Positions 939-55,227 of a DNA stretch of 64,000 bases are shown here, in pieces; within the stretch, counting starts at the first letter, position 1, and each line of letters starts with the position of its first letter. Under the pieces are notes generated by a model. That model saw only the letters and a program-made list of their open reading frames with translations. It was not told the origin of the DNA and did no database searches. A program made the position numbers and the translations under genes. Source of the DNA: Escherichia coli (GTDB lineage Bacteria; Pseudomonadota; Gammaproteobacteria; Enterobacterales; Enterobacteriaceae); the NCBI RefSeq assembly GCF_050920415.1, contig NZ_CP169309.1; one strand, 5' to 3'.

Positions 939-1790
939 TTAAGACTGCTTGGACATCGCAGCAACTTCTGCTGCAAAGTCAGTCTCAACTTTCTCGATGC
1001 CTTCACCTACTTCGAAGCGGATGAAGCCAGTCACTTCAGCGTTATGCTCTTTCAGCAGCTGACCAACAGTTTTGCTTGGTTCCATAACGAACGGCTGACC
1101 GGTCAGAGAAACTTCGCCGGTGAATTTCTTCATGCGGCCTTCAACCATTTTCTCTGCGATTTCTTTCGGCTTACCAGACTGCATCGCGATATCCAGCTGA
1201 ACCTGGTATTCTTTCTCTACCACTTCAGCGGAAACATCTTCCGGTTTGATGAATTCTGGTTTGCTTGCAGCAACGTGCATAGCGATGTGTTTAACCAGCT
1301 CTTCGTCAGCGCCTTTAGCAGCAACCAGAACGCCGATACGCGCACCGTGCTGATAAGAACCCAGAACGTCGCCTTCCAGCGCAGCAACGCGGCGAATGTT
1401 GATGTTTTCACCAATTTTCGCTACCAGCGCAACACGTTCTTCTTCGAACTGTGCTTTCAGAACTTCAACGTCAGTGATTTTGCCAGCAACAGCTGCGTCC
1501 AGAACTTTGTCTGCGAACGCCTGGAAACCAGCGTCTTTTGCAACGAAGTCAGTCTGGCAGTTAACTTCCAGAATGATGCCGTAGTTGCCGTCGATTTTGG
1601 TTTTGATCACGCCGTCAGCAGCAACGTTGCCTGCTTTTTTCGCTGCTTTGATAGCACCGGACTTACGCATGTTTTCGATTGCCAGCTCGATGTCGCCGTT
1701 AGCTTCAGTCAGTGCTTTTTTGCAATCCATCATGCCTGCGCCAGTACGCTCACGCAGCTCTTTTACCAGGGATGCGGTAATTTCAGCCAT
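939..1790 (-). CDS. tsf: elongation factor Ts
   Basis: 283 aa [30 protein letters not shown]...; length matches EF-Ts. Confidence 0.95.
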
Positions 1791-1905
1791 TCTAAAATCC
1801 TCGGAGATGTGATCTGCCCGGCATTAAACCGCACAGATATAAAAGTGAAAAAGGGGGCCATATGCAGGCCCCCTAACCAAACGTGTACTACCTGGTCTAT
1901 AAGGG

Positions 1906-2030
1906 CTCTCCCCCTTCATATTTCGCGCCGCAGATGCGTTGTCTTCGCTCGCTCATCCCGGTCACTTACTGATGTAAGCTCCCGGGAATTCTCGAGCTTG
2001 CCGCCTTTCTGCAACTCGAACTATTTTGGG
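1906..2030 (-). repeat. ERIC/IRU-like imperfect palindromic repeat in tsf-rpsB intergenic region
   Basis: hand alignment: about 86% identity over a 77-nt core to the reverse complement of the ERIC copy at 44556-44682, with changes on both palindrome arms (CCCCAG/CTGGGG vs CCCGG/CCGGG). Confidence 0.5.
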
Positions 2031-2047
2031 GGAGTTATCAAGCCTTA

Positions 2048-2995
<948 letters not shown>

Positions 2996-3140
2996 TCAGA
3001 CGATGAATTTTCTATTATAGAAAACGTTCAGTGGCACGTTTGGCGAAATTCAGAATGATTCTCAATTTGCCCGGGTGTGATACCATTGACGACACTTACA
3101 TATATATTGTCGGTATCACCGACGCTGATGGACAGAATTA

Positions 3141-10302: not shown

Positions 10303-11727
10303 TTACTGCATTAACAGATAGATGGTGCTGTCGCCGCGCTGAATATTCAGTGCCAGCACAGACGGTTTGCTGTCGAGAACTTTACGCAGTTCAGCGATGT
10401 TTTTCACTGCCTGCTGGTTCGCACCAATAATCACATCACCTTTCTTCAGGCCGATCTGCGCAGCCGGAGTGCCCGTTTTCACGTTGTTCACCACCACGCC
10501 CTGATCTTTGCCTTTGTTGCTCATCTCAGCGCCTTCAATGCCGTTGAAGATGGTGCTGGAATCAACCTGATTCTGGCTGCTCTGCTGCAGTTCCAGGTTC
10601 ACGTTAACCTGCTTCCCGTCGCGCAGTAAGCCCAGGGTCAGTTTGCTGCCTACCGGCATAGTGCCCACCTGAGCACGCAGTGCGGCAAAGCTGCTGATTG
10701 GCTTACCGTTCAGTGAGGTGATCACATCACCCGCTTTAATGCCCGCTTTCGCGGCGGAAGAGTTCGGCAGAACCTGGCTTACGAAAGCACCGCGCTGGGC
10801 GTCAACTTTCATCGCTTTCGCCAGATCGGAGTTCAGCTCAGTGCCCATAATACCCAGCTCACCACGTTTCACCTGGCCGTATTCCACCATCTGCGAGGTC
10901 AGGTTTTTCACCATGTTGCTCGGGATAGCAAAACCGATACCGATGTTTCCGCCGTCCGGTGCGAGGATCGCGGTGTTGATACCAATCAGTTCGCCGTTCA
11001 GGTTAACCAGCGCGCCACCAGAGTTACCCCGGTTGATCGCAGCATCGGTCTGGATGAAGTTTTCATAGTTTTCGGCATTCAGACCGCTACGCCCCAGCGC
11101 AGAGACAATCCCGGAAGTTACCGTCTCGCCCAGACCAAACGGGTTACCAATTGCTACGGTGTAATCACCCACGCGCAGTGCATCAGAATCCGCCATCTTA
11201 ATTGCGGTCAGATTTTTCGGGTTCTGGATCTGGATCAGCGCGATATCAGAGCGCGGATCTTTGCCAACCATCTTCGCGTCGAACTTACGACCATCGCTCA
11301 GCTGGACTTTAATCACCGTCGCGTTATCAACAACGTGGTTGTTGGTGACGACATAGCCTTTATCGGCATCAATGATGACGCCGGAACCCAGCGCCATGAA
11401 TTTCTGTTGTTGGCCGCCGCCATTACCGCCCTGGCCCCCCTGGCAGAACGGAGAGCTCTGGAACGGAGAACCTTCCTGGCAGAACGGAGAATCATCACCG
11501 AAGAACTGCTGGAAATTACGCGGCATACGCGGCGTATTAACGGTTGTGCTACCTTCTACGTTAATGCTGACCACTGAAGGCATCACCTTTTCGAGCATCG
11601 GTGCAAGGCTTGGCATCTGCTGGGCTGTCGTTGCTGAAGAAGTCTCAGCCGCCGTTGCAGAGAGCGGAGATAACGCCAAACCTAAACTCAGAGCCAGTGC
11701 ACTCAGTGCTAATGTGGTTTTTTTCAT
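10303..11727 (-). CDS. degP: periplasmic serine endoprotease DegP/HtrA
   Basis: 474 aa; signal peptide, trypsin-like GNSGGAL motif, two PDZ domains. Confidence 0.95.
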   Translation of the reverse strand: MKKTTLALSALALSLGLALSPLSATAAETSSATTAQQMPSLAPMLEKVMPSVVSINVEGSTTVNTPRMPRNFQQFFGDDSPFCQEGSPFQSSPFCQGGQGGNGGGQQQKFMALGSGVIIDADKGYVVTNNHVVDNATVIKVQLSDGRKFDAKMVGKDPRSDIALIQIQNPKNLTAIKMADSDALRVGDYTVAIGNPFGLGETVTSGIVSALGRSGLNAENYENFIQTDAAINRGNSGGALVNLNGELIGINTAILAPDGGNIGIGFAIPSNMVKNLTSQMVEYGQVKRGELGIMGTELNSDLAKAMKVDAQRGAFVSQVLPNSSAAKAGIKAGDVITSLNGKPISSFAALRAQVGTMPVGSKLTLGLLRDGKQVNVNLELQQSSQNQVDSSTIFNGIEGAEMSNKGKDQGVVVNNVKTGTPAAQIGLKKGDVIIGANQQAVKNIAELRKVLDSKPSVLALNIQRGDSTIYLLMQ

Positions 11728-11772
11728 GTATTTCAGTCTCGATTAACAGATAACGCAAAATTGCTGTGTTCT

Positions 11773-17728: not shown

Positions 17729-19009
17729 ATGAGTAAGTCTGAAAATCTATACAGCGCAGCGCGCGAGCTGATCCCTGGCGGTGTGAACTCCCCTGTTCGC
17801 GCCTTTACCGGCGTGGGCGGCACTCCACTGTTTATCGAAAAAGCGGACGGCGCTTATCTGTACGATGTTGATGGCAAAGCCTATATCGATTATGTCGGTT
17901 CCTGGGGGCCGATGGTGCTGGGCCATAACCATCCGGCGATCCGCAATGCCGTGATTGAAGCCGCCGAACGCGGTCTGAGCTTTGGCGCACCGACCGAAAT
18001 GGAAGTGAAAATGGCGCAACTGGTGACCGAACTGGTCCCGACCATGGATATGGTGCGCATGGTGAACTCCGGCACCGAAGCGACGATGAGCGCCATCCGC
18101 CTGGCCCGTGGTTTTACCGGTCGCGACAAAATCATTAAATTCGAAGGTTGCTACCACGGTCACGCTGACTGTCTGCTGGTAAAAGCCGGTTCTGGCGCAC
18201 TCACTTTAGGCCAGCCAAACTCGCCGGGCGTTCCGGCAGATTTCGCCAAACATACATTAACCTGTACTTATAACGATCTGGCCTCGGTACGCGCCGCGTT
18301 TGAGCAATACCCGCAAGAGATTGCCTGTATTATTGTCGAGCCAGTAGCAGGCAACATGAACTGTGTTCCGCCGCTGCCAGAGTTCCTGCCGGGTCTGCGC
18401 GCACTGTGCGACGAATTTGGCGCATTGCTGATCATCGATGAAGTGATGACCGGTTTCCGCGTGGCGCTGGCTGGCGCGCAGGATTATTACGACGTGGTGC
18501 CAGACCTCACCTGCCTGGGCAAAATCATCGGCGGTGGAATGCCGGTAGGCGCATTCGGTGGTCGTCGTGATGTGATGGATGCGCTGGCCCCAACCGGTCC
18601 GGTCTATCAGGCGGGTACGCTTTCCGGTAACCCGATTGCGATGGCAGCCGGTTTCGCCTGTCTGAATGAAGTCGCGCAGCCGGGCGTTCACGAGACGCTG
18701 GATGAGCTGACAACACGTCTGGCAGAAGGTCTGCTGGAAGCGGCAGAAGAAGCGGGAATTCCATTGGTCGTTAACCACGTTGGCGGCATGTTCGGTATTT
18801 TCTTTACCGACGCCGAGTCCGTGACGTGCTATCAGGATGTGATGGCCTGTGACGTGGAACGCTTTAAGCGTTTCTTCCATATGATGCTGGACGAAGGTGT
18901 TTACCTGGCACCGTCAGCGTTTGAAGCGGGCTTTATGTCTGTGGCGCACAGCATGGAAGATATCAATAACACCATCGATGCTGCACGTCGGGTGTTTGCG
19001 AAGTTGTGA
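17729..19009 (+). CDS. hemL: glutamate-1-semialdehyde 2,1-aminomutase
   Basis: 426 aa [29 protein letters not shown]... Confidence 0.95.
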
Positions 19010-19029
19010 TCCAGCATGGTTTGTCGGAT

Positions 19030-19112
19030 GCGGCGTAAACGCCTTATCCGACCTACAGATCAGGACCGTTTGTAGGCCCGATAAGACGCCACAGCGTCGC
19101 ATCGGGTATCCG
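19030..19112. repeat. REP/BIME cluster between convergent hemL and fhuB
   Basis: two oppositely oriented REP-like units: GGATGCGGCGTAAACGCCTTATCCGACCTACA and TGTAGGCCCGATAAGACGCC...GCGTCGCATCGGG. Confidence 0.6.
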
Positions 19113-19166: not shown

Positions 19167-21149
19167 TTAACGGCTCTGCTTTCTCAACAAATAGATAAAA
19201 TACGGCGCGCCGATAAAGGTCGACAGCAGCCCCGCTGGGATCTGGAATGGAAACAGCACCATCCGCCCACACCAGTCAGCGAACACCAGCAGTAAACCAC
19301 CCACCAGCGCCGAAATCACAATATGCGGCATCGTCCGTCGAAAGCCCATCATCCGCGCGATATGCGGTGCCATCAGACCAACAAAACTCAACGGTCCAAT
19401 GGTCATTGTCGCGGTCGCCGTCAGGCAAGCCGCCAGCAGCAGTAGCGCAATTCGCGTCGGCGTCAGCGCCATTCCCACTGCTCGTGCGGTATCACCGCCC
19501 AGCGGTAAAATGGTCAGCCAGCGGCGGCACAGCGGGGTAATCGCCAGCAAAATTACCATCACAATTCCCGTGCGCCAGACCTGCGCCTCGGTCGCGTTGT
19601 AGGTCGAACCGGAAATCCACGTCAGCACTTGCGCCATTCGCGGGTCACCACTTGCCTGCAACATCATCAAAAGCATGGTGAACGCGGTACTTAAGGCCAT
19701 CCCCGCCAGTAACATGCGGTGTGGGGAAAATCCACCGCGTCCGGCAGCGATCATAATGATCAACAGCGTCACCGCCGCGCCGAGACTGCCCGCGGGTAAC
19801 AGCCAGCCAAAGGCATTACCCGGCACCAAAAACAGCATCAATACCACACCAAACGCCGCGCCGGAACTAATCCCCAGCACTTCCGGGCTTGCCATCGGGT
19901 TTCCGGTCAGCCGCTGAATAATACAGCCCGCCACTGCCAGCATGATGCCCGCAAACAGTGCCGCCATAATTCGCGGCCAGCGCCAGGGCATTAAATCATC
20001 GAGCAGCGCCCCGCTCGCCCACGTCCAGCCGTGCGCATCACGACCAAACGACAGCGCCACCACCACAGCAATTATCAGCAGCACACCGCCAGCAAGGGCA
20101 AACGCCAGCACATGTTGGCGTTCAGTCGCGACACGATCGTTGGCCTTCATATCCGGCGCACTGATGCTGCGTAAACGCGGCAGCAGCCACAGCAGCAGCG
20201 GCGCACCGATGAGCGCAGTGACCGAACCGGTAGAAACTTCCATCCACACGCGAGTCAGCCAGAGGATGATTTGATCGGAAAGCCAGAGGATCAGCGCACC
20301 AATCAGTGACGCCAGCAGCAGTCTTGGCAGCAGACGCCGCGCCCCCAGCATTTTTGCCAGCAGCGGCGCGAACAACCCGATAAAGCCGATAATCCCCACC
20401 GCGTTCACCAGCAGCGCACTGATGACTATCGCCAGCGACAGCGCCGCCAGACGCGCGAGCGACAAGGCCAGCCCGAGATTGCGCGCCACGCCATCATCAA
20501 GCCCCATCAGGGTTAACGGACGAAGTAGCAGTAACGTCAGCATCACGCCGCCCAGCAACTGCGGCCATAAACGCTCAACGCCGCCCCAGTCGGTTTGCGT
20601 CAGCGTTCCGGTGCTCCACAGGAACATGCTTTGTAGCTGGTCGTGATGGAAGATAACCAGTAACTGATTGATTGCCCCGCAATAAAGGCTCACCACAAGC
20701 CCCGCGAGGATCAGCGTTACCGGAGAAAGCCGTTTCCCCCACGCGACGCCAAAGACAATTAAGCCAACCACACAAGCCCCTGCCAATGCAGCAAACTGGC
20801 TCGCCATCGCACCAGGGATCGCCCAGAGCGTGGTGACGGTAATCCCCAGTTGCGCGCCTGTAGCAACGCCCAACGTCGTCGGTTCCGCCAGCGGGTTACG
20901 CAGCACTTGCTGAAACAGCACGCCCACCAGCCCCAGGCCCGCGCCCACCAGCAGCAAAATCGCCAGACGCGGTAACAAGCTGTAGTGAAAAATCATCTGC
21001 TCGATGACATCGATATCCGGCGACCAGGTGGCCTGCACCCACTGGCTACGCGGCAGCGCCTGCGAGAAGTTCATCCAGGTGAGCATCGCTGCGGCAATCA
21101 CCAGCAGCGCCAACAATAACGCCGGGAAAAGCGCAATACGTTTACTCAC
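19167..21149 (-). CDS. fhuB: ferrichrome ABC transporter permease
   Basis: 660 aa, duplicated FecCD-type permease halves. Confidence 0.95.
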   Translation of the reverse strand: MSKRIALFPALLLALLVIAAAMLTWMNFSQALPRSQWVQATWSPDIDVIEQMIFHYSLLPRLAILLLVGAGLGLVGVLFQQVLRNPLAEPTTLGVATGAQLGITVTTLWAIPGAMASQFAALAGACVVGLIVFGVAWGKRLSPVTLILAGLVVSLYCGAINQLLVIFHHDQLQSMFLWSTGTLTQTDWGGVERLWPQLLGGVMLTLLLLRPLTLMGLDDGVARNLGLALSLARLAALSLAIVISALLVNAVGIIGFIGLFAPLLAKMLGARRLLPRLLLASLIGALILWLSDQIILWLTRVWMEVSTGSVTALIGAPLLLWLLPRLRSISAPDMKANDRVATERQHVLAFALAGGVLLIIAVVVALSFGRDAHGWTWASGALLDDLMPWRWPRIMAALFAGIMLAVAGCIIQRLTGNPMASPEVLGISSGAAFGVVLMLFLVPGNAFGWLLPAGSLGAAVTLLIIMIAAGRGGFSPHRMLLAGMALSTAFTMLLMMLQASGDPRMAQVLTWISGSTYNATEAQVWRTGIVMVILLAITPLCRRWLTILPLGGDTARAVGMALTPTRIALLLLAACLTATATMTIGPLSFVGLMAPHIARMMGFRRTMPHIVISALVGGLLLVFADWCGRMVLFPFQIPAGLLSTFIGAPYFIYLLRKQSR

Positions 21150-53832: not shown

Positions 53833-55227
<1,395 letters not shown>

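What the first reader, a model, noticed from the sequence alone, without database searches (positions are those of the whole stretch)
19030..19112. Other REP units in the window are candidate secondary targets for the guide RNA
The REP between hemL and fhuB contains, on the minus strand, CTTATCGGGCCTACAAAC (19069-19086). ATCGGGC-CT exactly equals the left guide segment of the RNA, a better match than the site actually occupied (ATCAGGC), and only the right half deviates. The REP at 53842-53875 (ATCCGGC-CT-ACTAAA) is a poorer match. REP clusters would therefore be predicted hot spots for this element.
Basis: partly seen in the sequence, partly recalled or inferred. Interest (0 to 1): 0.45.

Follow-up and report, generated by a model that had tools for sequence, protein, structure and literature searches.

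The report
REP hairpin is known IS621 target
A short repeated palindrome (REP) between the E. coli genes hemL and fhuB perfectly matches the guide RNA of the IS621 jumping gene elsewhere in the window. Other E. coli strains carry IS621 at exactly this spot, but this targeting rule is already published.

Summary
ATCGGGCCTAC lies at 19072-19082 on the minus strand, in the 3' arm of a REP hairpin between the convergent genes hemL and fhuB. It is the only exact copy in the window.

The resident element at 53923-55200 (minus strand) is IS621, of the IS110 family. Its bridge (guide) RNA is 174/177 identical to the published one, and all guide segments are unchanged.

The right guide specifies only CT-AC, which this site matches, so the site is an 11/11 match. 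The occupied site, ATCAGGCCTAC, matches 10/11 with a tolerated rG:dT pair.

The prediction holds:
- Seven of 5,426 complete E. coli genomes carry IS621 at exactly this bond and in this orientation, from at least two or three independent events.
- One of them is a close relative, N96, whose copy has the same guide-RNA variant.
- The exact 50-mer is listed as a natural IS621 target in Durrant et al. 2024.
- The poorer ATCCGGCCTAC REP is never occupied in the predicted way.

It is already known that IS621 targets REPs (Choi 2003) and that the guide specifies ATCGGGCCTAC (Durrant 2024).

The window's own copy has a recombinase gene broken by two frameshifts. Low interest.

The parts
19072..19082 (-). 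Candidate IS621 target 11-mer ATCGGGC-CT-AC: left target 19076-19082, core CT 19074-19075, right target AC 19072-19073. The predicted insertion point is between 19074 and 19073.
   Evidence: Only exact match in the window. Identical to the published target-binding-loop specificity ATCGGGCCTAC (file 5). Occupied at this bond in 7 E. coli genomes.
19072..19106 (-). REP unit (Z2-like) CCCGATGCGACGCTGTGGCGTCTTATCGGGCCTAC. The left target ATCGGGC forms the 3' arm of its hairpin stem. The G at target position 4 is compensated by a C in the 5' arm (CCCGAT).
   Evidence: REP head and tail scan; hairpin of -11.2 kcal/mol, z = -4.6.
19023..19056 (+). Inverted partner REP (Y-type) GTCGGATGCGGCGTAAACGCCTTATCCGACCTAC. 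Its 11-mer ATCCGACCTAC (19046-19056) has 2 mismatches to this element's guide. Together with the unit above it forms a REP pair (BIME) between convergent hemL and fhuB.
   Evidence: Occupied in E. coli C9 by an IS621 variant whose left guide reads ATCCGACCT.
53923..55200 (-). Resident IS621 copy, 1,278 bp including the 3' CT core. The left end begins TGTATTATCC at 55200 and the right end finishes ...ACAGTAT-CT at 53923.
   Evidence: 97.5-99.5% identical to elements annotated 'IS110-like element IS621 family transposase' in 1,634 genomes. Boundaries.
55010..55186 (-). Bridge (guide) RNA gene: left target guide ATCGGGCCU at 55129-55137, right target guide GUAG at 55105-55108 preceded by UGC at 55109-55111, and a donor-binding loop containing ACAGUAU around 55055-55062.
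   Evidence: 174/177 identical to the experimentally used bridge RNA. The 3 differences lie in the apical hairpin between the two target guides, and the stem is kept. Folds with z = -4.0.
54030..55008 (-). IS621 recombinase gene, broken. The open frame ends after 215 aa. Two 1-nt homopolymer deletions (at 54407 and 54272) shift the frame over roughly residues 201-246, which includes the catalytic Ser241 region.
   Evidence: Alignment to intact 326-aa copies. PF01548 DEDD_Tnp_IS110, E = 5e-25, on the 215-aa part. The 54272 deletion is shared with a copy annotated 'frameshifted' in strain MFDS1022581.
55201..55227 (-). Left half of the occupied REP target: GCCTGATGCGCTACGCTT-ATCAGGC-CT, abutting the IS left end.
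   Evidence: A weak Rfam naRNA4 (REP-derived) match overlaps it.
53852..53885 (+). REP unit (Y-type) next to gcd with 11-mer ATCCGGCCTAC at 53875-53885. It has one mismatch, at position 4 (C, so no wobble is possible).
   Evidence: No canonical IS621 insertion there in 5,426 genomes.

Best explanation
The flagged sequence is an ordinary E. coli REP hairpin, one of an inverted pair between the convergent genes hemL and fhuB. Its 3' arm and tail read ATCGGGC-CT-AC.

[quoted passage not shown] The right guide GUAG pairs with the top-strand CTAC.

The site is therefore a genuine, recurrently used natural attachment site for IS621. The circular IS form, which carries ACAGTAT-CT-TGTAT at its joined ends, is recombined into the target after the CT core by the recombinase tetramer, giving LT-CT-IS-CT-RT.

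Shown here: the 11/11 match; intact guide and donor segments in the resident copy; and natural insertions at exactly this bond in other genomes.

Taken from the literature: the pairing and strand-exchange mechanism.

Inferred: that insertion could occur in this particular strain. The resident copy's recombinase gene is frameshifted, so recombinase would have to come from another IS621 copy.
For: -: single exact 11-mer in the window, 0.03 expected.
- the published bridge RNA has specificity ATCGGGCCTAC. The window copy is 174/177 identical, with all guide segments unchanged.
- (PMC11208160): 144 of 173 experimental insertion sites were in REPs. 129 sites were ATCAGGCCTAC and 2 were ATCGGGCCTAC, together 96.2% of insertions. 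The right guide is 4 bp, with an optional GCA extension.
- (PMC11208158): the left guide A50-U58 and right guide G77-G80 pair with the target, with a G53:dT non-canonical pair. Cleavage is between T9 and A10.
- the exact 50-mer of this site is natural target seq640. The BL21-type flank variant is seq627.
- both predicted junctions occur in the same 7 genomes.
- the junctions read ...CTTATCGGGCCT|TGTATTAT...ACAGTATCT|ACAAACGG....
- the IS copies at this site differ by 28-29 nt between N96 and the others, and two flank haplotypes occur, so the events were independent.
- N96 carries the window-type bridge-RNA variant at both the gcd-cueO and the hemL-fhuB sites.
- BL21(DE3), the strain used in the published genome insertion assay, has ATCGGGCCTAC at this REP.
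Against: - The resident copy cannot make recombinase: it has two frameshifts, and the region encoding Ser241 is out of frame. The window alone does not show whether an intact copy exists in this genome.
- According to the literature, the bridge RNA is transcribed from a promoter that is only reconstituted in the excised circle. The integrated copy is therefore not necessarily producing guide RNA.
- The perfect-match site is occupied in far fewer genomes (7) than the wobble-match gcd-cueO site (202). Better pairing therefore does not obviously mean a hotter spot. These counts are confounded by shared ancestry.
- In this strain and its nearest relative MFDS1022581 the site is empty.
Confidence: 0.93

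Rival explanations
1. The match is only a by-product of REP conservation. The REP is a host element (a hairpin acting in mRNA stability or termination, or as a gyrase or IHF site) and is not actually used by IS621 at this locus.
For: - The site is empty in the window and in its nearest relative.
- REPs are host repeats with hairpin structure.
- Only 7 of 5,426 genomes are occupied.
Against: - Both exact junctions are present in 7 genomes, involving two IS variants and two flank haplotypes.
- The exact 50-mer is in a published list of natural targets.
- Being a host REP and being an IS621 target are not mutually exclusive.
Confidence: 0.03
2. The site is recognisable but is effectively protected or disfavoured relative to ATCAGGCCTAC REPs, for example by a more stable G-C-rich hairpin or by bound host proteins. 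It would then be a weak target rather than a hot spot, despite perfect pairing.
For: - 7 occupied genomes here against 202 at the gcd-cueO ATCAGGCCTAC site.
- In Durrant's natural-target file, 24 entries contain TTATCGGGCCTAC and 575 contain TTATCAGGCCTAC.
Against: - ATCGGGC-type REPs are simply much rarer than ATCAGGC-type REPs: 2 against 129 used sites in BL21(DE3). The raw counts therefore say nothing about per-site efficiency.
- Occupancy counts are not corrected for phylogeny.
- At least 2-3 independent hits at one locus argue for good usage.
Confidence: 0.2
3. The resident element is a dead relic, and no IS621 activity exists in this strain. The REP would then be a target only in principle.
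For: Two frameshifts in the recombinase gene. One is shared with a copy annotated as frameshifted in a related genome.
Against: - Guide segments, donor ends and the junction-promoter hexamers are all intact.
- Related genomes hold 10-21 IS621 places, with intact 326-aa copies.
- The same frameshifted lineage sits at different loci in the window's genome and in MFDS1022581. This implies recent movement or gene conversion.
- Published work shows the bridge RNA works in trans.
- Both deletions are in homopolymers, so one or both could be sequencing errors.
Confidence: 0.25

Closest known systems
IS621 (IS110 family) bridge-RNA-guided recombinase of E. coli (Choi, Ohta & Ohtsubo 2003; Durrant et al. 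2024, PMC11208160; Hiraizumi et al. 2024, PMC11208158)
   Same: - The element is 97.5-99.5% identical to annotated IS621 copies.
- The bridge RNA is 174/177 identical, with the same left and right target guides and donor guides.
- It has a CT core at both junctions and ACAGTAT/TGTAT ends.
- The occupied target is the canonical ATCAGGCCTAC in a REP.
- The flagged site equals the published loop specificity ATCGGGCCTAC and is in the published list of natural targets.
   Different: - This copy has three substitutions or insertions in the apical hairpin of the target-binding loop (UUAGGUUUUCAACCUG instead of UUGGGUUCUAACCUG), a variant shared with strains N96 and MFDS1022581.
- Its recombinase gene carries two frameshifts.
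REP / BIME elements of E. coli
   Same: - A 34-35-nt imperfect palindrome with the GCC(G/T)GATGCG-type head and CTTATC(N)GGCCTAC tail.
- An inverted pair separated by a short linker.
- Located between convergent genes.
   Different: This unit is the rarer ATCGGGC variant, with G at target position 4 and a compensating C in the 5' arm, rather than the common ATCAGGC (Z) or ATCCGGC (Y) types.
ISPpu9 / ISPpu10 of Pseudomonas putida (IS110 family elements inserted in REPs; PMC12288879 and bioRxiv 10.64898/2026.03.19.712850, titles and abstracts only)
   Same: IS110-family elements that insert site-specifically into the host's REP sequences.
   Different: Different host, a different REP family and a different bridge-RNA architecture. 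Not examined here beyond the abstracts.

Membership tests
IS621 / IS110-family bridge recombinase element (the resident IS) | N-terminal DEDD RuvC-like transposase domain | tested here: met
   PF01548 DEDD_Tnp_IS110, E = 5.4e-25, residues 8-152 of the 215-aa ORF. The protein is identical in frame to the intact 326-aa copies up to about residue 200.
IS621 / IS110-family bridge recombinase element (the resident IS) | Intact C-terminal Tnp domain with catalytic Ser241 | tested here: not met
   Two 1-nt deletions (54407, 54272) put roughly residues 201-246 out of frame. The coding DNA is otherwise present. This makes the copy a defective member, not a non-member: DNA identity to annotated IS621 is 97.5-99.5%.
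IS621 / IS110-family bridge recombinase element (the resident IS) | Bridge RNA in the left end, with a target-binding loop (left and right target guides) and a donor-binding loop | tested here: met
   174/177 identity to the experimentally validated RNA. AUCGGGCCU, UGC-GUAG and the donor-loop ACAGUAU are unchanged. Predicted fold z = -4.0. No Rfam 15 family matches it.
IS621 / IS110-family bridge recombinase element (the resident IS) | CT core at both junctions; donor ends ACAGTAT...TGTAT; a sigma-70 promoter split between the right and left ends | tested here: met
   The junctions read ATCAGGC-CT|TGTATT... and ...ACAGTAT-CT|ACGTG. Joining the right and left ends gives TTGCAG-N17-TATTAT, read from the sequence (coordinates). 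Promoter activity was not tested.
Natural IS621 target site (the flagged REP) | 11-nt match to the target-binding loop (7 left target + CT core + 2 right target) | tested here: met
   11/11 at 19072-19082 (-). 1 of 3 in the optional GCA extension.
Natural IS621 target site (the flagged REP) | Element found inserted at exactly this bond and orientation in other genomes | tested here: met
   7 of 5,426 genomes carry both junctions. Junctions were read in three of them. Listed as natural target seq640 and seq627.
Natural IS621 target site (the flagged REP) | Experimental insertion into the site | not testable with these tools
   BL21(DE3) has ATCGGGCCTAC at this REP, and the paper reports two such sites hit. 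The per-site table (Supplementary Table 3) could not be read.
REP / BIME | Roughly 35-nt imperfect palindrome with the conserved head and tail, extragenic, in an inverted pair | tested here: met
   Head and tail scan. Hairpins of -11.2 and -10.0 kcal/mol with z about -4 to -5. Located between the hemL stop (19009) and the fhuB stop (19167).

The most novel reading that the evidence does not exclude
Recombinase-dead IS621 copies that keep an intact bridge RNA and intact ends may be moved in trans by sibling copies. They would then behave as non-autonomous, RNA-guided passengers.

The evidence is that the same frameshift (deletion at window 54272) and the same SNP set occur in the window's copy at gcd-cueO and in a copy at a different locus (tkt side) in the nearest relative, MFDS1022581.

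A related reading concerns guide diversification. Within a single REP pair, the two arms are used by IS621 lineages whose left guides differ to match each arm: ATCGGGC in 7 genomes and ATCCGAC in strain C9. This suggests guides diversify along REP subtypes.
Probability: 0.35. Interest if true: 0.3.

Novelty: already known. Interest (0 to 1): 0.12.

Why it matters
It matters little beyond confirmation. The result shows that a reader working from raw sequence can correctly derive the target rule of a bridge-RNA element and predict a real insertion site.

The rule (REP targeting, loop specificity ATCGGGCCTAC, tolerance of A at position 4) is published, and this exact site is in the published target list.

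Practical value:
- When annotating this strain, the hemL-fhuB REP is a polymorphic IS621 site.
- The resident copy should be marked as a pseudogene-bearing copy that may still be mobilisable in trans.

Tried and rejected
- **Rfam.** Searches at the gathering threshold and at a permissive E-value found no bridge-RNA family. The only hit was a weak REP-related naRNA4 match. The RNA was therefore identified by alignment to the published sequence.
- **Choi et al. 2003 (PMC166490).** Not held. REP targeting is cited through Durrant et al.
- **Supplementary Table 3 of Durrant et al.** The per-site insertion counts in BL21(DE3) could not be found as text. I could not show that this REP is one of the two ATCGGGCCTAC sites hit experimentally, only that BL21(DE3) carries the motif there.
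- **ATCCGGCCTAC REP at 53875.** The chimeric-junction test gave one apparent hit (strain D5). It turned out to be an inverted IS621 at the neighbouring ATCAGGCCTAC site, not an insertion in that REP.
- **Could the D5 orientation be guide-directed on the other strand?** Rejected: only 6/11 positions match, and the core would be GT.
- **Promoter and terminator scan of the hemL-fhuB spacer.** Nothing found.
- **Occupancy as a hot-spot measure.** The raw counts (7 against 202 genomes) were not used, because they are confounded by shared ancestry and by how rare ATCGGGC-type REPs are.

Full report
**What is at the coordinates**

The window is an E. coli chromosome segment running rpsB ... hemL, fhuBDCA ... 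gcd, cueO ... acnB. hemL is 100% identical to strain MFDS1022581 and 99.7% identical to strain N96.

hemL ends at 19009 on the plus strand and fhuB ends at 19167 on the minus strand. Between them lie two REP units in inverted orientation:
- 19023-19056 (+): GTCGGATGCGGCGTAAACGCCTTATCCGACCTAC.
- 19072-19106 (-): CCCGATGCGACGCTGTGGCGTCTTATCGGGCCTAC.

Each folds as a hairpin. ATCGGGCCTAC at 19072-19082 (-) is the only exact match to ATCRGGCCTAC in the window, against 0.03 expected.

**The element that carries the guide**

Between gcd and cueO, on the minus strand at 55200-53923, lies a 1,278-bp element. It is flanked as ...CGCTT-ATCAGGC-CT|TGTATTATCC ... ACAGTAT-CT|ACGTGAAC.

It is 97.5-99.5% identical to elements annotated 'IS110-like element IS621 family transposase', which are present in 2,244 of 5,426 complete E. 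coli genomes.

Its left end encodes an RNA that is 174/177 identical to the bridge RNA used by Durrant et al.:
- The left target guide AUCGGGCCU (55129-55137), the right target guide GUAG preceded by UGC, and the donor-binding loop are all unchanged.
- The three differences lie in the small apical hairpin between the two target guides, and they keep its stem.

The N-terminal 215 aa match PF01548. Two 1-nt homopolymer deletions, at 54407 and 54272, then throw roughly residues 201-246 out of frame, including the Ser241 region (catalytic role of S241 from PMC11208158). The 54272 deletion is shared with a copy annotated 'frameshifted' at a different locus in MFDS1022581. At least that frameshift is therefore real, and the defective lineage has moved or been converted.

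**What the guide specifies**

The published work gives the following (PMC11208160; PMC11208158):
- The target-binding loop of IS621 specifies ATCGGGCCTAC.
- The left guide (A50-U58) pairs with the bottom strand of the left target plus the CT core.
- The right guide (G77-G80, GUAG) pairs with the top-strand CTAC.
- The usual natural target, ATCAGGCCTAC, is accepted through a G53:dT non-canonical pair.
- Cleavage is between T9 and A10.
- An optional 3-bp extension (GCA, pairing with UGC) improves use of the site.

The flagged site is therefore an 11/11 match, not a site whose 'right half deviates'. Only the optional extension differs (AAA, 1 of 3), and the occupied site does no better there (GTG, 1 of 3).

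The REP next to gcd (53852-53885, +) has ATCCGGCCTAC.

**Direct test of the prediction**

I built the two junctions that an insertion at 19074|19073 would create, using 150 nt of flank plus 150 nt of IS end, and searched 5,426 complete E. coli genomes.
- Both junctions are present, full length, in the same seven genomes: N96, isolate 648 (OW967966), CFSAN064035, 5444, 10034940-2, 15.03CC and 22AR0322.
- An IS621 transposase is annotated between fhuB and hemL in these genomes.
- Read base by base, the junctions are ...GTCTTATCGGGCCT|TGTATTAT... and ...ACAGTATCT|ACAAACGG....

The events were independent:
- N96 carries the window-type IS variant, which is 28-29 nt different from the canonical copies in the other genomes.
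- The canonical copies sit on two different flank haplotypes.
- There were therefore at least two, and probably three, independent insertions.

N96, a close relative of the window's strain, has the same IS variant at both gcd-cueO and hemL-fhuB. The nearest relative, MFDS1022581, has an identical but empty hemL-fhuB spacer (171/171 bases).

The exact 50-mer GACGCTGTGGCGTCTTATCGGGCCTACAAACGGTCCTGATCTGTAGGTCG is natural target seq640 in Supplementary Data 2 of Durrant et al. The BL21-type haplotype is seq627. BL21(DE3), the strain used in their genome insertion assay, has ATCGGGCCTAC at this REP. The paper reports two such sites hit, but I could not read the per-site table.

**Controls with the other REPs**
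- The gcd-cueO site occupied in the window is occupied in 202 genomes.
- The ATCCGGCCTAC REP at 53875 has no canonical insertion in any genome.
- The other arm of the hemL-fhuB pair (ATCCGACCTAC, 2 mismatches to this guide) is occupied in one genome, strain C9. The element there is an IS621 variant whose left guide reads ATCCGACCU. The target and guide co-vary, as the bridge-RNA model predicts.
- An IS621 inside a prophage capsid gene, a non-REP site, still has a guide-like target: ATCG(A)AGCCT|AC-GCG, one bulged base plus one wobble position. Non-REP copies therefore do not contradict guide-directed targeting.

**Mechanism and caveats**

The best explanation is the published one. The REP is a host repeat whose 3' arm and tail happen to be the sequence that IS621's bridge RNA reads. 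An excised IS621 circle is recombined in after the CT core.

- Shown here: the match, the intact guides and donor ends, and natural occupancy of the site.
- Taken from the literature: the pairing geometry, the chemistry, and the fact that the bridge RNA is transcribed from a promoter rebuilt at the RE-LE junction of the circle. The two hexamers TTGCAG and TATTAT are present at 17-nt spacing once the ends are joined (coordinates).
- Inferred: that insertion could happen in this strain. The resident copy lacks a working recombinase gene, and the rest of the genome is unseen.

The idea that a better match means a hotter site is not established. The raw counts (7 against 202 genomes; 24 against 575 unique natural targets) are confounded by ancestry and by the rarity of ATCGGGC-type REPs.

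**Novelty**

This is already known. REP targeting by IS621 dates from Choi et al. 2003 (reference 16 in PMC11208160). The loop specificity, the position-4 tolerance and this very site as a natural target are in Durrant et al. 2024.

The finding is a correct re-derivation with one technical error (the 'deviating right half') and minor coordinate slips. Interest is low.

Noticed in passing
L002 (E. coli C9, NZ_CP010129.1) 1640-2930; equivalent to window 19046-19056 (+): An IS621 variant is inserted in the other arm of the hemL-fhuB REP pair, at ATCCGACCT|AC and in the opposite orientation. Its bridge-RNA left guide reads ATCCGACCU instead of AUCGGGCCU, and the bases 5' of the right guide also differ (CGCG-GUAG against UUGC-GUAG). 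This is natural guide and target co-variation at a single locus.
   Followed up: partly
L003 (E. coli D5, NZ_CP010145.1) 1770-3070; equivalent to window 53921-55209: IS621 sits at the same bond of the gcd-cueO REP as in the window, but the whole element is inverted. The sequence reads ATCAGGC-CT-AG-rc(right end)...rc(left end)-AC, with both core dinucleotides at one junction and none at the other. Guide pairing on the other strand does not explain it (6/11). The arrangement is unique among 5,426 genomes. It could be a rare aberrant recombination or an assembly error.
   Followed up: partly
window 54272 and 54407 (-); L008 (MFDS1022581, NZ_CP169399.1 842351-844482): The window's IS621 recombinase gene has two 1-nt homopolymer deletions. 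The one at 54272, together with all the window-specific SNPs, is shared with a copy next to tkt in the nearest relative, while that relative lacks an IS at gcd-cueO. This suggests a defective copy was mobilised in trans, or that gene conversion occurred between copies.
   Followed up: partly
window 55113-55128 (-); also L001, L006, L008: A lineage-specific bridge-RNA variant changes the apical hairpin of the target-binding loop from UUGGGUUCUAACCUG to UUAGGUUUUCAACCUG. A G-U pair becomes A-U and the loop is one nucleotide longer. It is shared by the window, N96 and MFDS1022581, and is evidently functional, since N96 has it at two loci alongside intact recombinase genes.
   Followed up: partly
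L006 (N96 gcd-cueO locus) compared with window 53886-53922: In N96 the spacer to the right of the gcd-cueO IS621 is the short REP-pair linker ACAAACGGTCCTGATCTGTAGGTCGG, nearly identical to the hemL-fhuB linker. The window instead has the long linker ACGTGAACTCTGCAATTTATTGAAT.... The REP-pair type at this locus therefore differs between close relatives.
   Followed up: no
L009 (CFSAN064035, NZ_CP031134.1 70553-73800): IS621 interrupts a prophage major capsid gene at GATATCGAAGCCT|ACGCG. This is a non-REP target that resembles the guide with one extra base. The same insertion is seen in many STEC genomes.
   Followed up: partly
window 1853-1962 (-), 2801-2887 (-), 11722-11767 (-): Rfam hits unrelated to the finding: CssrA sRNA, t44 RNA upstream of rpsB, and the htrA (degP) 5' UTR thermometer.
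   Followed up: no
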